A stretch of DNA of 64,000 nucleotides from sequence record NC_027349.1; one strand, 5' to 3'. The notes below the pieces were generated by a model. The model ran no database searches and was not told the DNA's origin. It saw only the letters and a list, made by a program, of their open reading frames with translations. Made by a program: the position numbers and the translations under genes. Shown piece after piece: positions 1,546 to 32,877 of this stretch; position 1 is the stretch's first letter; every line of letters begins with the position of its first letter. Origin of the DNA: Escherichia phage HY01.

Positions 1546-1580
1546 TACGGTGCATTCTAAAGGCCTGTTTCGGCAGGCCA

Positions 1581-1588
1581 TATAAATA
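1581..1588 (+). promoter_or_regulatory. T4-type late promoter TATAAATA upstream of gene 19 (second copy at 1640-1647)
   Basis: Exact TATAAATA octamer after hairpin GGCCTG-TTTCGG-CAGGCC. Confidence 0.5.
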
Positions 1589-1661
1589 CACTATATCCTT
1601 AATTCTTTAATTCTATATGCCCTAGGTTAAACATAGGGATATAAATACTACAGAGGCTAAT

Positions 1662-2153
1662 ATGTTTGTAGATGATGTAACACGAGCGTTTGAATCCGGT
1701 GATTTTGCTCGACCTAACTTATTCCAAGTAGAAATTTCTTATCTTGGACAAAATTTTACGTTTCAATGTAAAGCCACTGCTTTACCAGCTGGTATTGTAG
1801 AAAAAATTCCAGTCGGATTCATGAACCGTAAAATTAACGTAGCAGGCGATCGTACATTCGATGACTGGACTGTTACAGTAATGAACGATGAGGCACATGA
1901 TGCTCGCCAGAAGTTTGTTGATTGGCAAAGCATTGCTGCTGGGCAAGGAAACGAAATTACTGGTGGAAAACCAGCAGAGTATAAAAAGAGCGCTATTGTA
2001 CGCCAATATGCTCGTGACGCTAAAACTGTAACAAAAGAAGTCGAAATTAAAGGCCTGTGGCCTACTAACGTGGGTGAACTTCAATTAGATTGGGATTCAA
2101 ACAATGAAATCCAAACCTTTGAAGTAACTCTTGCTCTCGATTATTGGGAATAA
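1662..2153 (+). CDS. 19: Tail tube protein gp19 (163 aa)
   Basis: Length and order identical to T4 gp19; SD GAGG before ATG 1662. Confidence 0.9.
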   Translation: MFVDDVTRAFESGDFARPNLFQVEISYLGQNFTFQCKATALPAGIVEKIPVGFMNRKINVAGDRTFDDWTVTVMNDEAHDARQKFVDWQSIAAGQGNEITGGKPAEYKKSAIVRQYARDAKTVTKEVEIKGLWPTNVGELQLDWDSNNEIQTFEVTLALDYWE

Positions 2154-31403: not shown

Positions 31404-31736
31404 TTATTTTACTACTTTCCAATGCTTCATGTCAAGTTTGCCAACTTTTTTCATCTTCTCAATTAAGCGTTCAGCACGTTGGCGAGCTGTAACATAATAC
31501 CATTCACCTAATTCATTTTGTTCAATTTTTCCAACGATTACTGTATTCAATTCATAAATCCAACCAGTAAAGAAATTATGAACTTGAATTGTAAAGGTGA
31601 AATCTGTTCCCATACCTTCTGTTGTTTCTACTTCAATAATATCACCTTCAACTGCCATTAAGAACCACATAGTTTCATCATATTTACCATTGAAGCATTT
31701 AGTTTTAACTGTAGCGTTCAGATTAATCGTTTTCAT
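31404..31736 (-). CDS. Hypothetical protein, 110 aa
   Basis: ORF in early operon. Confidence 0.5.
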   Translation of the reverse strand: MKTINLNATVKTKCFNGKYDETMWFLMAVEGDIIEVETTEGMGTDFTFTIQVHNFFTGWIYELNTVIVGKIEQNELGEWYYVTARQRAERLIEKMKKVGKLDMKHWKVVK

Positions 31737-31813
31737 TTTATTCTCCTTTGTTTGTGTAAGATAATACTATCACAAAGGAACTATACTGTAAACAACTTTG
31801 TGCAATCTTTGGA

Positions 31814-31841
31814 AAATAAAAAAGGACTCCCGAAGGAGTCC
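31814..31841 (-). terminator. Strong intrinsic terminator after the small basic-protein gene
   Basis: GGACTCC-TTCG-GGAGTCC followed by TTTTTTATTTT on minus strand. Confidence 0.65.
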
Positions 31842-31846
31842 TCAAC

Positions 31847-32065
31847 TTATGCTTTCTGCTTACCAAAACGAGAAGCATCATCTCGAAGAACCGCACGTGC
31901 TCGGCGCATGATCTTCTCAACAGTTTGATTGATACGAGAGTTCGACCCACGCTTGTAACCAGCGCGTTTAGAATCACCAACTTTCTTTTCAACTGCTTTC
32001 TTTGCTTTAGCTTGTTTTGCCATTATAAATTCTCTTTTAAATGAAAATGCAGGACTTATTGGCAT
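31847..32065 (-). CDS. Small Lys/Arg-rich basic protein (72 aa, or 58 aa from ATG 32023); encoded on minus strand although ORF track labels it +
   Basis: Reverse-complement translation gives MAKQAKAKKAVEKK...RFGKQKA; followed by strong intrinsic terminator. Confidence 0.45.
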   Translation of the reverse strand: MPISPAFSFKREFIMAKQAKAKKAVEKKVGDSKRAGYKRGSNSRINQTVEKIMRRARAVLRDDASRFGKQKA

Positions 32066-32142
32066 TGCCTGCGCAAGCCCTCAAGGGGAACATAGGTTTT
32101 GTATATTTACCGACAGGATAACCATAAACCTCGTCAACATAA

Positions 32143-32391
32143 TTACTTCAGTGTTACCACAAAGTGACGAACTGCTTTTCGTGCAGCAGAAGCCAGAGGC
32201 TTAGCATACTTAAGTTCATCTTTTTCCTGAAGCTCAGCGGCTAATGCAGTTTGAGCAGGATTCAGATGTTTGAAATAACGCAGGATTTCAAGAGCTTCGG
32301 CTTCAACATCAATAGATGCGCCATAGTTTTCGTGACCATTATTCCATGCGTTTCGTTGCAGTTCAAGAGCGTGTTGTAATTGTTTAATCAT
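32143..32391 (-). CDS. rIII: rIII lysis-inhibition accessory protein (82 aa)
   Basis: Size and position between 31 and the 30.x genes as in T4. Confidence 0.65.
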   Translation of the reverse strand: MIKQLQHALELQRNAWNNGHENYGASIDVEAEALEILRYFKHLNPAQTALAAELQEKDELKYAKPLASAARKAVRHFVVTLK

Positions 32392-32538
32392 TTAAAAATT
32401 CTCGTTAGAGATTAAAACTCGGTAGTCACGTTCTTCTGAATTTCATCTTCTTTCGACAGATCTCTCAGTTGTAGACTACCACATAGAATTGTTCGGTTAA
32501 CTTATTATTCCGACACCCAATTCATATTATTATTTATA

Positions 32539-32877
32539 TCACTTATAAAGACATGGAATAGCTTTATAGTGACAGGTAACGAATTTTTGTTTAATTTCTT
32601 TTGGCTGCTTAAGACCCAGAGCTACAAAAGGATGCGGAACGTTTCGAATTTGACCAACTGGCAGAGAAGTCAAATCACCAACTTCGCAGAAACCTTCAGG
32701 AACATCAGGACCAACAGAGTGAATTACACACAGTTCAGGAACTTCACCTTGAACACGTTTACCGATAATAAGTCCTGATTCTGTAACTTCTTCATCACCG
32801 GCTTGTGCAGGTTCAGAAACTAAAATAACATATTCACCGACAGCACGAATTGGTAGTAGCTGTTGTACTTCAGACAT
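32539..32877 (-). CDS. 31: gp31 co-chaperonin (GroES analogue, 112 aa)
   Basis: Size/position/sequence as T4 gp31. Confidence 0.85.

What the first reader, a model, noticed from the sequence alone, without database searches (positions are those of the whole stretch)
31814..32065. Small lysine/arginine-rich protein gene with its own strong terminator, mis-stranded in the ORF track
Reverse-complement translation gives a 58-72 aa highly basic protein (MAKQAKAKKAVEKKVGDSKRAGYKRG...). It is followed by a GC-rich hairpin plus a T7 run and sits between rIII and the 30.x block. The ORF track labels it plus strand, but the sequence shows it is minus. Its composition suggests nucleic-acid binding (histone-like or ribosome-associated).
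Basis: seen in the sequence. Interest (0 to 1): 0.35.

Follow-up and report, generated by a model that had tools for sequence, protein, structure and literature searches.

The report
Phage T4 gene 30.9 ortholog
This is the already catalogued phage T4 gene 30.9: a real, very basic 58-amino-acid protein gene on the minus strand, closing its transcription unit at a conserved terminator, with no known function, so the finding is correct but ordinary.

Summary
Window 31847..32023 (minus strand) encodes a 58-aa protein (6.5 kDa, pI 11.4, net charge about +13). It is 100% identical to T4 gp30.9 (NP_049823/P17310). It lies between rIII and 30.8 and is followed by a UUCG-capped hairpin plus U6AU4.

The 72-aa extension is not conserved, so the start is the MAKQ methionine at 32023. 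The reading frame is open in 35 of 35 distinct relatives. dN/dS is about 0.3, or 0.08-0.2 for close pairs. The terminator keeps its stem through compensatory changes.

About 1000 T4-like phage genomes carry the gene, from Escherichia to Aeromonas and Pseudomonas phages. It always sits just after gene 31 or rIII. No E. coli genome has it.

No Pfam, NCBIfam, PDB or Foldseek relative exists. AlphaFold gives only a disordered Lys-rich tail, an invariant RxGYKRxSNxR motif and one amphipathic Arg-rich helix.

My best guess is that it folds onto a polyanion, most likely RNA or the ribosome. That is inference only. Histone-like or ribosomal-protein homology is not supported.

In passing I found an unannotated, strongly covarying 60-nt hairpin. 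It sits in the rIII leader here and in the 30.9 leader in other phages.

The parts
31847..32023 (-). Gene 30.9 coding sequence: 58 codons plus a TAA stop at 31849..31847. The product is MAKQAKAKKAVEKKVGDSKRAGYKRGSNSRINQTVEKIMRRARAVLRDDASRFGKQKA.
   Evidence: Searches give the coordinates. The protein is 100% identical to T4 gp30.9, with one synonymous difference. It hits PHROG 1427 at E=2.3e-31. The frame is open in 35/35 relatives. dN/dS is about 0.3.
32024..32065 (-). In-frame upstream extension that produces the mechanical 72-aa ORF. It is not part of the protein; it is leader RNA.
   Evidence: The extension differs between lineages or is absent, and several relatives have an in-frame stop within 5 codons or fewer of the MAK start.
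32029..32048 (-). Mini-hairpin AUUUUC-N8-GAGAAU that pairs a pyrimidine tract with the purine-rich Shine-Dalgarno-like AAGAGA (32036..32031), 7 nt before the AUG.
   Evidence: RNAfold predicts it. The equivalent pairings in relatives are UCUCC/GGAAGA, AUUCU/AGAAU and CCUC/GAGG. A regulatory role is inferred only.
32049..32088 (-). Conserved leader hairpins: CCCC-UUGA-GGG at 32088..32078 and GCAGG...CCUGC at 32072..32049.
   Evidence: They are conserved across lineages, with CAGG/CCUG changing to CUGG/CCAG in L023 and L034. Folding z-scores are no different from controls, so support is weak.
31813..31843 (-). Intrinsic terminator: a 9-bp stem with a UUCG tetraloop, followed by U6AU4.
   Evidence: Searches identify it. 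It is present right after the stop in 39 of 40 related loci, and 5 of 9 stem pairs show compensatory changes.
31764..31792 (-). T4 early-type promoter TTTACA-N17-TAGTAT (with TG) for gene 30.8. Together with the terminator it forms a PeSL-type terminator/promoter cassette.
   Evidence: One search finds it. The PeSL consensus TTTACW-N17-TAYWAT for T4/PST comes from PMC4122927. GTTTAC is conserved after the terminator in relatives.
32143..32391 (-). Gene rIII, the upstream neighbour, probably co-transcribed with 30.9.
   Evidence: Searches identify it. No terminator-like site lies between gene 31 and the 30.9 terminator.
32421..32480 (-). Covarying 60-nt three-helix hairpin ('R1') in the rIII leader. 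Its internal loop, UACAAC / GAAGAACGUG, is invariant. In other Tevenvirinae the same element sits in the 30.9 leader.
   Evidence: locate and align it. On the alignment 98.5% of cells are paired and 9/17 pairs changed on both sides. The covariance model gives one hit in the window at 87 bits. It is not in Rfam.
32531..32538 (-). T4 late-promoter consensus TATAAATA, immediately after the gene 31 stop. A candidate start for a late rIII-30.9 transcript.
   Evidence: This is a consensus match only; function is inferred from established T4 late-promoter knowledge.

Best explanation
Identity (confidence about 0.97). This is the ortholog of bacteriophage T4 gene 30.9. It is a genuine protein-coding gene on the minus strand. 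It is the last cistron of the gene 31-rIII-30.9 transcription unit. That unit ends at a conserved rho-independent terminator, which together with the next early promoter forms a PeSL-type cassette.

Mechanism (inferred, confidence about 0.35). The 58-aa product is not a globular protein. It has a disordered Lys/Ala-rich N-terminal tail, an invariant basic motif R20-x-G-Y23-K24-R25-x-S-N28-x-R30, and one amphipathic helix (about residues 29-53) with an Arg-rich face. I propose that it folds only when it docks onto a polyanionic partner. The most likely partner is RNA, either rRNA in the ribosome or structured mRNA. On this view it acts from early infection onward as a small accessory RNA-binding factor rather than as an enzyme.

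Its translation is probably tuned by a mini-hairpin that occludes its weak purine-rich Shine-Dalgarno sequence.
For: Identity. The protein is 100% identical to T4 NP_049823 and has the same neighbours. It hits PHROG 1427 at 2.3e-31.

Real gene. There are 68 protein clusters in the first search, 164 with a broader profile, and 1004 phage records by tblastn. The start methionine is conserved while N-terminal extensions are not. The frame is open in 35/35 distinct sequences. Median dN/dS is 0.30, and 0.08-0.21 for close pairs. Invariant residues show synonymous codon variation.

Expression. The T4 30.9 transcript was classed 'early', as were rIII, 31, 31.1 and cd (PMC9697503 Table S2). The protein was not detected there. 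That is expected, because the longest tryptic peptide is 7 aa.

Terminator.

Mechanism. Net charge is +13.5 and pI is 11.4. Two AlphaFold runs give only one confident helix (pLDDT 83-91) and a low-confidence N-terminal half. The helix is amphipathic, with muH 0.59. Across 72 diverse members, R20, Y23, K24, R25 and R30 are invariant. Extra tails in distant members are again Lys/Ala/Pro-rich, for example AKSRKPSATKAAKAAKKI in Pseudomonas phage PspYZU05. No member shows a credible fusion to any known domain. The gene sits in a unit whose leaders carry conserved structured RNA.
Against: No experiment or homology links the family to RNA, DNA or ribosomes. The best PDB profile hits are a SlmA helix (E=0.15) and eL29 (E=5.1). 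Both are noise.

High positive charge is equally compatible with DNA binding or with binding an acidic protein.

The conserved hydrophobic face of the helix (I31, V35, I38, A42, V45, L46, F53) suggests a protein-protein or self-association surface. That could just as well mean a protein target.

Ten of 40 loci that have the gene lack the R1 RNA motif. There is therefore no strict protein-RNA co-occurrence.

The leader hairpins immediately upstream of 30.9 are not thermodynamically exceptional.
Confidence: 0.5

Rival explanations
1. gp30.9 is a protein-binding modulator. It would be an intrinsically disordered basic peptide whose amphipathic helix docks on a host or phage protein, for example as an inhibitor of a host enzyme or an anti-defence factor. 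Many small T4 early proteins work this way (my own knowledge).
For: The transcript is in the early class. Small size, predicted disorder and a single amphipathic helix with a conserved hydrophobic face all fit. An invariant short linear motif is typical of peptide-protein recognition. No nucleic-acid-binding fold was detected.
Against: The gene is conserved from Escherichia to Aeromonas and Pseudomonas T4-like phages, with an invariant motif. That argues for a universal target rather than a strain-specific defence system. The extreme charge and the variable, low-complexity Lys-rich tails look more like polyanion binding.
Confidence: 0.22
2. gp30.9 is a DNA-binding, histone-like protein. It would coat or condense phage or host DNA through its Lys/Arg-rich tail and basic helix.
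For: Composition supports it: 33% K+R, an AKAKKA-type tail, and H1-like KAAKAAKK tails in distant homologs.
Against: There is no match to HU/IHF, H-NS, Fis or any DNA-binding Pfam family at E<=1. No dimeric or HTH fold is predicted. To my knowledge it is not reported among T4 virion or internal proteins. The invariant Tyr-containing motif suggests specific rather than bulk electrostatic binding.
Confidence: 0.15
3. gp30.9 is a membrane- or lysis-associated cationic amphipathic peptide that works with its neighbour rIII in lysis inhibition.
For: It lies immediately downstream of rIII in nearly all Tevenvirinae, is probably co-transcribed with it, and has the same style of leader. It has a cationic amphipathic helix.
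Against: Aeromonas Biquartavirus and Pseudomonas phage PspYZU05 keep the gene directly after gene 31 but have no rIII at that locus. Mean hydrophobicity of the helix is low (-0.46 on the Eisenberg scale), so it is not a typical surface-seeking helix. Gene order in this block is conserved in general, so synteny is weak evidence.
Confidence: 0.06
4. The ORF is not a functional protein. It would be a chance ORF, a leader peptide whose sequence does not matter, or the real gene would be on the plus strand.
For: The nearest GenBank record, PEC04 (100% identical DNA), does not annotate it. The protein was not seen in T4 proteomics. The plus strand has a 58-aa ORF at 31752..31928.
Against: dN/dS is 0.08-0.3, residues are invariant despite synonymous change, and indels occur only in multiples of three. 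The frame is open in 35/35 sequences while no antisense frame is kept open. The missing proteomic signal is explained by tryptic peptides of 7 aa or fewer. The plus-strand ORF starts with TTG and runs through a promoter and a terminator.
Confidence: 0.01

Closest known systems
Bacteriophage T4 gp30.9 (NP_049823; UniProt P17310, 'Uncharacterized 11.1 kDa protein in Gp30-rIII intergenic region'; PHROG 1427)
   Same: Identical 58-aa sequence, same strand, same neighbours (rIII upstream, 30.8 downstream) and same terminator.
   Different: Nothing of substance differs. The rIII-30.9 spacer is 119-122 nt here against 244 nt in T4. The old UniProt entry uses a 97-aa upstream-extended ORF that conservation does not support.
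PeSL cassettes (promoter-early stem-loop; Arbiol et al. 2010, PMC2839356; Comeau et al. 2014, PMC4122927)
   Same: A stem-loop terminator is followed within about 30 nt by a T4 early promoter, TTTACA-N17-TAGTAT. The published T4/PST consensus is TTTACW-N17-TAYWAT. The arrangement is conserved after 30.9 in relatives.
   Different: There is one mismatch in the -10 hexamer (G where the consensus has Y). I did not check whether this particular site is listed in those papers. The rIII-30.9 side, not only the PeSL side, is the indel-prone part here.
Phage-encoded ribosome-binding factors, e.g. PhiKZ014 of Pseudomonas phage PhiKZ (PMC10914614), and phage copies of ribosomal protein bS21
   Same: Early expressed, conserved within a phage group and basic. 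This is the kind of role I propose (for PhiKZ014).
   Different: PhiKZ014 is a large multi-domain protein that clamps 5S rRNA, and it has no sequence relation to gp30.9. gp30.9 matches no ribosomal-protein Pfam model, bS21 included, at E<=1. Ribosome association of gp30.9 is untested.
Arginine-rich-motif peptides such as lambda N (binds the boxB RNA hairpin) - my own knowledge
   Same: A short basic segment that is disordered alone and becomes helical on a structured RNA. A structured hairpin lies in the same transcription unit.
   Different: There is no sequence similarity. The gp30.9 helix is amphipathic with a hydrophobic face and is less Arg-dense. No binding has been shown, and 10 of 40 loci lack the R1 hairpin.
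Small basic nucleoid-associated / histone-like proteins (HU, H-NS, H1-like tails)
   Same: High Lys/Ala content in the tail.
   Different: There is no homology. It is monomeric-helix sized at 6.5 kDa, and it has a specific invariant motif.

Membership tests
T4 gp30.9 family (PHROG 1427) | Sequence match to T4 gp30.9 or the family profile | tested here: met
   100% amino-acid identity to T4 with one synonymous nucleotide difference. PHROG 1427 E=2.3e-31 over residues 1-58.
T4 gp30.9 family (PHROG 1427) | Position between gene 31/rIII and 30.8, on the same strand | tested here: met
   Distant members are also in this position.
T4 gp30.9 family (PHROG 1427) | Invariant motif R-x-G-Y-K-R-x-[ST]-N-x-R followed by a helix | tested here: met
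   Alignments A1, A5 and A6. Helix 29/33-53 in both AlphaFold models.
Protein-coding gene (as opposed to a chance ORF or leader peptide) | Purifying selection on the amino-acid sequence and conserved frame and start | tested here: met
   Median dN/dS 0.30 over 539 pairs. Frame open in 35/35. Synonymous variation at invariant residues.
Rho-independent terminator | GC-rich stem-loop immediately followed by a U tract, conserved in position, with covariation | tested here: met
   9-bp stem, UUCG loop, U6AU4. 5 of 9 pairs show compensatory changes in 18 lineages. Actual termination was not measured.
PeSL terminator/early-promoter cassette | Stem-loop followed by TTTACW-N17-TAYWAT | tested here: met
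   TTTACA-N17-TAGTAT, 11 of 12 against the PeSL consensus (consensus from PMC4122927).
Bacterial ribosomal proteins (e.g. bS21, bL32-bL36) or ribosome-associated small proteins | Match to a family profile or to a solved ribosomal protein | tested here: not met
   No Pfam or NCBIfam family at E<=1. PDB profile search gave only eL29 at E=5.1, which is not significant. Foldseek against PDB gave 0 hits. The exhaustive HMM search found no cellular protein family.
Bacterial ribosomal proteins (e.g. bS21, bL32-bL36) or ribosome-associated small proteins | Physical association with ribosomes | not testable with these tools
   Needs gradient fractionation or cryo-EM of infected cells.
Histone-like / nucleoid-associated DNA-binding proteins (HU/IHF, H-NS, Fis) | Family profile match and a dimeric DNA-binding fold | tested here: not met
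   No Pfam hit. The models show a single helix and no compact fold.
Arginine-rich-motif RNA-binding peptides (lambda N type) | Short Arg-rich helix that binds a specific RNA hairpin | tested here: inconclusive
   A basic helix and nearby conserved hairpins exist. There is no homology, no binding data and no strict co-occurrence.
Rfam RF02502 (Atu_C8 sRNA) | Score at or above the gathering threshold of 50 bits | tested here: not met
   31.4 bits over 31808..31891. I attribute the match to the terminator hairpin.

The most novel reading that the evidence does not exclude
gp30.9 is a conserved phage-encoded RNA-binding factor, either ribosome-associated or bound to the structured leaders of the rIII/30.9 mRNAs. 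Those leaders include the covarying 60-nt hairpin with the invariant internal loop UACAAC/GAAGAACGUG. That hairpin sits in the rIII leader in T4-type phages and in the 30.9 leader in Klebsiella-type phages. Under this reading, protein and hairpin would form an undescribed post-transcriptional control module shared by about 900-1000 Tevenvirinae genomes.
Probability: 0.1. Interest if true: 0.6.

Novelty: already known. Interest (0 to 1): 0.2.

Why it matters
As found, it matters little. The gene, its strand and its terminator are already in the T4 reference annotation. The check mostly corrects bookkeeping: the true start, the true strand, missing annotation in some records and false annotation in others.

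The residual value is that gp30.9 is one of the most widely conserved T4 'hypothetical' proteins. It is in about 1000 genomes, it carries an invariant motif, and it is absent from E. coli genomes. It is also invisible to standard tryptic proteomics. [quoted passage not shown] A 58-aa basic protein is cheap to synthesise and test.

The unannotated covarying hairpin in the same transcription unit is a separate lead for a new cis-regulatory RNA family, and it is better supported.

Tried and rejected
1. Pfam, NCBIfam, PDB sequence/profile search and Foldseek gave no usable relative. I rejected the SlmA match (E=0.15, one helix) and the eL29 match (E=5.1) as noise, because the exhaustive 1.84-billion-protein HMM search did not recover either family.

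2. The sub-threshold Rfam hit to Atu_C8 (31 bits against 50) is, in my reading, just the terminator hairpin.

3. I looked for a sigma-70 or early promoter in the rIII-30.9 spacer. The scan found none, and my manual attempts to fit early or MotA-type boxes failed on spacing.

4. I tested whether the 65 nt before the 30.9 ribosome-binding site is unusually stable. Mean z was -0.78 against -0.76 for controls (p=0.62), so there is no support. RNAalifold on T4-type leaders found no compensatory pair. Only the CAGG/CCUG to CUGG/CCAG change, seen by eye, supports hairpin 2.

5. I checked the 278-bp extra insert of phage NBG2 for tRNA and Rfam families and found nothing.

6. The terminator-like hairpin inside the CDS (31885..31869) needs a CGA codon that only 7 of 34 sequences have. 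I treat it as chance.

7. I considered reading the 3' internal loop GAAGAAC of the R1 hairpin as a K-turn. I rejected this by my own reasoning, because the opposite strand lacks the A and G needed for the tandem G.A pairs.

8. The IUPAC pattern scan of IMG/VR for the R1 loop was too loose. Only 2 of 80 loci were confirmed by the covariance model.

9. Literature searches found no functional study. Driukas & Nivinskas 2003 (Biologija) on rIII/30.9 expression and Miller et al. 2003 are not held.

10. tblastn found no paralog in the window. No DNA homolog exists in 5,426 E. coli genomes.

Full report
WHAT IS THERE

The minus strand of window 31847..32023 reads ATG GCA AAA CAA ... GCA TAA. It encodes MAKQAKAKKAVEKKVGDSKRAGYKRGSNSRINQTVEKIMRRARAVLRDDASRFGKQKA, 58 aa. 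An in-frame ATG at 32065 gives the mechanical 72-aa ORF.

Three nucleotides after the stop lies the hairpin GAGGACUCC-UUCG-GGAGUCCUU, at 31843..31822, followed by U6AU4. Next comes a T4 early-type promoter, TTTACA-N17-TAGTAT, at 31792..31764. It precedes the next gene at 31404..31736.

Upstream are an 82-aa ORF (32143..32391) and a 112-aa ORF (32539..32877). The first is T4 rIII and the second is the co-chaperonin gp31.

The window is a Tequatrovirus. The 501 bp around the finding are 100% identical to phage PEC04, and 760 phage records match.

IDENTITY

The T4 reference genome annotates exactly this ORF as gene 30.9. It is T4p212 / NP_049823, 177 bp, on the minus strand between rIII and 30.8. 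The window differs from T4 by one synonymous base, so the protein is identical. It belongs to PHROG 1427, of unknown function, at E=2.3e-31.

IS IT A REAL GENE, AND WHERE DOES IT START?

A search of 5.8 billion proteins returned 68 clusters. A broader profile returned 164. Nearly all are small, at 53-105 aa. The named ones are 'hypothetical protein', apart from one false enzyme name described under item 5 below. tblastn found the gene in 1004 of 50,697 phage records, covering Escherichia, Klebsiella, Shigella, Yersinia, Serratia, Edwardsiella, Enterobacter and Pseudomonas phages.

In alignments the MAK start is conserved. The N-terminal extensions (72 aa, 97 aa and others) differ between lineages, and several lineages have a stop codon within five codons upstream. 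The 58-aa form is therefore the real one.

In 40 loci fetched from IMG/VR, the frame is open in 35 of 35 distinct sequences. No other frame is kept open. Nei-Gojobori dN/dS has a median of 0.30 over 539 pairs, and 0.08-0.21 for close pairs. Invariant residues such as R41, A42 and R43 are encoded by several synonymous codons. Indels are confined to the Lys-rich tail and are multiples of three. The plus-strand ORFs at 31752..31928 and 31925..32044 are mechanical.

EXPRESSION

In a published T4 time course, the 30.9 transcript is classed 'early'. So are rIII, 31, 31.1 and cd. The 30.9 protein was not detected (PMC9697503, Table S2). Non-detection is expected, since the longest tryptic peptide is 7 residues.

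No terminator-like site lies between gene 31 and the hairpin after 30.9. A late-promoter consensus, TATAAATA, sits right after the gene 31 stop at 32538..32531. From these I infer that 30.9 is the last cistron of early read-through transcripts and of a late rIII-30.9 transcript.

A 2003 paper on in vivo expression of rIII and 30.9 (Driukas & Nivinskas, Biologija) is cited in PMC9409239. It is not held in the library.

TERMINATOR

A hairpin plus T run directly follows the stop in 39 of 40 loci. In 18 lineages, 5 of 9 stem pairs show compensatory double changes, for example ACUCC/GGAGU, AACC/GGUU, AGAC/GUCU and GCUCC/GGAGC. With the adjacent early promoter it fits the composite terminator/promoter 'PeSL' motif described for T4-like phages. 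The published consensus for T4/PST is TTTACW-N17-TAYWAT (PMC4122927). So the 'own strong terminator' is the end of a transcription unit, not a private feature of this gene.

THE PROTEIN

It is 6.5 kDa with pI 11.4 and net charge +13.5. Nineteen of its 58 residues are K or R.

Two AlphaFold runs, with 27 and 72 aligned sequences, give mean pLDDT of 65 and 70. The only confident element is a helix at residues 29/33-53, with pLDDT 83-91. The N-terminal half is low-confidence. The helix is amphipathic (muH 0.59). One face is hydrophobic: I31, V35, I38, A42, V45, L46 and F53. The other is Arg-rich.

Across 72 diverse members the invariant positions are R20, Y23, K24, R25 and R30. G22, N28 and R43 are nearly invariant. 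The motif is R-x-G-Y-K-R-x-S-N-x-R.

An exhaustive HMM search of 1.84 billion representative proteins found only 18 hits. Most are small proteins (41-92 aa) of the same layout. The exceptions are:
- a 617-aa repeat protein that I judged spurious;
- the 97-aa upstream-extended T4 call;
- one short-contig chimera;
- a 20-aa fragment.
No cellular family was found.

Pfam, NCBIfam, PDB profile searches and Foldseek gave nothing significant. No E. coli genome has related DNA. The window has no paralog.

DISTRIBUTION AND CONTEXT

In Tevenvirinae the order rIII - spacer - 30.9 - terminator - early promoter - 30.8 is kept. Three more distant cases were checked:
- Aeromonas phage avDM9-HANS (Biquartavirus): a 63-aa member directly follows gp31, with no rIII between them.
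- Pseudomonas phage PspYZU05: a 92-aa member follows gp31 and carries a Lys/Ala/Pro-rich C-terminal tail.
- A metagenomic contig: the order is 31.1 - gp31 - rIII - an 88-aa member.
So the gene does not depend on rIII. Synteny in this block is conserved in general, and by itself it says little about function.

MECHANISM

What is shown:
- The protein is conserved and under purifying selection.
- It is transcribed early.
- It is too small and too charged to fold alone.
- It carries a short invariant basic motif containing a tyrosine, next to an amphipathic basic helix.

What is inferred: it acts by docking onto a polyanionic partner and folding there. I rank the candidate partners as follows.

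| Candidate partner or role | Confidence | Main reasons |
|---|---|---|
| RNA (ribosome or structured mRNA) | about 0.35 | The target must be shared by hosts as different as Escherichia, Aeromonas and Pseudomonas. The added tails in distant members are again low-complexity and basic. The transcription unit is rich in conserved RNA structure. |
| A protein target | 0.22 | The conserved hydrophobic face of the helix suggests a protein contact surface. |
| DNA | 0.15 | Composition only. |
| A lysis or membrane role with rIII | 0.06 | Phages without rIII keep the gene, and the helix has low hydrophobicity. |
| Non-functional ORF | 0.01 | Excluded by the conservation data. |

None of these readings has direct evidence.

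LEADER OF 30.9

The rIII-30.9 spacer varies from 119 to 416 nt among relatives. This window has the shortest form. T4 has 122 nt more and NBG2 has 278 nt more. All variants keep the last 115 nt or so.

That conserved part holds three elements:
- a small hairpin, CCCC-UUGA-GGG;
- a second hairpin, GCAGG...CCUGC, which becomes CUGG/CCAG in two lineages and a long GGGAGC...GCUCCC hairpin in Klebsiella-type phages;
- a mini-hairpin that pairs a pyrimidine tract with the purine-rich ribosome-binding site. The pairing is UUUUC/GAGAA here, and UCUCC/GGAAGA, AUUCU/AGAAU or CCUC/GAGG elsewhere.

Folding energies are not exceptional, so I report this as suggestive only.

SIDE FINDING: A COVARYING HAIRPIN

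The long hairpin of the Klebsiella-type 30.9 leaders is the same element that sits 70 nt upstream of rIII in this window (32421..32480, minus strand).

I aligned nine distinct copies from both contexts against a three-helix model. The model runs:
- outer stem;
- 5' loop UACAA;
- middle stem;
- inner stem capped by UC-GAAA-GA;
- 3' loop AAGAACGU;
- outer stem.

On this alignment 98.5% of cells pair, and 9 of 17 pairs have changes on both sides. Slid controls give 30-46% pairing and 0-2 such pairs. The internal-loop sequences are invariant.

A covariance model finds one copy in the 64-kb window, at 87 bits. It also finds a short 35-bit copy in an unrelated 47-kb viral contig. BLAST finds the element once per genome in 907 phage records. 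In the 30 records listed it was either unannotated or fell under rIII or hypothetical-protein annotations. Rfam 15 has no match.

Ten of the 40 loci lack it. They carry other hairpin types at the same two positions, and at least one of those types is again shared between rIII and 30.9 leaders. The function is unknown. This is the more novel observation in the neighbourhood, but it lies outside the finding.

VERDICT

Novelty is 'already known', since this is T4 gene 30.9 with an annotated terminator, and the function remains unknown. Interest is low at 0.2. The most novel reading not excluded is a phage RNA- or ribosome-binding factor linked to the covarying leader hairpin. I give that reading a probability of about 0.1.

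Noticed in passing
window 32421..32480 (-): An unannotated 60-nt three-helix hairpin sits 70 nt upstream of rIII. Its internal loop UACAAC / GA(A/C)GAACGUG is invariant and it has a GAAA cap. 98.5% of cells are paired and 9/17 pairs are compensatory. There is a single copy in the window, one copy per genome in 907 phage records, and no Rfam family. In Klebsiella-type and other Tevenvirinae the same element sits in the 30.9 leader instead.
   Followed up: yes
L065 10499..10541 (+) (IMGVR_UViG_3300042356_000620): A short version of the same hairpin (UAUAGCA-CUACAAC-...-GACGAACGUG-UGCUAUA, 35 bits) lies in an unrelated 47-kb viral contig. It follows a T-rich terminator-like stretch and is not next to rIII or 30.9. 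The motif may therefore be more general.
   Followed up: partly
L012, L014, L018, L023, L025, L038, L039 leaders: The rIII and 30.9 leaders draw on a shared set of hairpin types. One type is outer stem-UGC-inner stem with loop YUAAAC-UACCG. Another is GGUGGAG-AUGCG-UUAAG..CUUAA-GG-CUCCACC, found in rIII leaders and in the 30.9 leader of L018. Each is followed by a mini-hairpin that pairs CCUC or UCUCC with the Shine-Dalgarno purines. I saw the stem covariation by eye and did not count it.
   Followed up: partly
window 32024..32142 (-); L003 6542..6785; L002 1559..1955: The rIII-30.9 spacer is an indel hot spot, ranging from 119 to 416 nt among relatives. This window has the minimal form, T4 has +122 nt and NBG2 has +278 nt. 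The inserts hold no tRNA, no Rfam family and no convincing ORF.
   Followed up: partly
GenBank/UniRef records of relatives (H12, H16, H17; P0018): A 68-aa 30.9 homolog, P0018, is named '1,4-alpha-glucan branching enzyme' in UniRef. The same GH-13 name is attached to a feature at this locus in several phage GenBank records. A protein this small cannot be that enzyme, so this looks like a propagating annotation error.
   Followed up: no
L001 (KR233165 PEC04) 1559..1964: The record that is 100% identical to the window over this stretch does not annotate gene 30.9 at all. Other records annotate the unsupported 72-, 97- or 102-aa extended forms.
   Followed up: yes
window 32531..32538 (-): The T4 late-promoter consensus TATAAATA lies directly after the gene 31 stop codon, upstream of rIII. 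Seventeen copies occur in the window against 9 expected. This suggests a late rIII-30.9 transcript in addition to early read-through.
   Followed up: partly
window 31869..31885 (-): A terminator-like hairpin, CGAGA-UGAUGCU-UCUCG + UUUUGG, lies inside the 3' end of the 30.9 coding sequence. It depends on codon choices that most relatives do not share, so it is probably chance.
   Followed up: yes
window 31737..31760 (-): The ribosome-binding site of gene 30.8 is AAAGGAGAA. It contains GGAG, the motif cut by the T4 RegB endoribonuclease. The 30.7 transcript is a known RegB target (PMC9409239). The purine tract of 30.9 lacks GGAG, so the two neighbours may differ in RegB sensitivity.
   Followed up: no
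window 31808..31891 (-): A sub-threshold Rfam match to the Rhizobiales sRNA Atu_C8 (31.4 bits, gathering score 50, E=5e-4). I attribute it to the terminator hairpin.
   Followed up: yes
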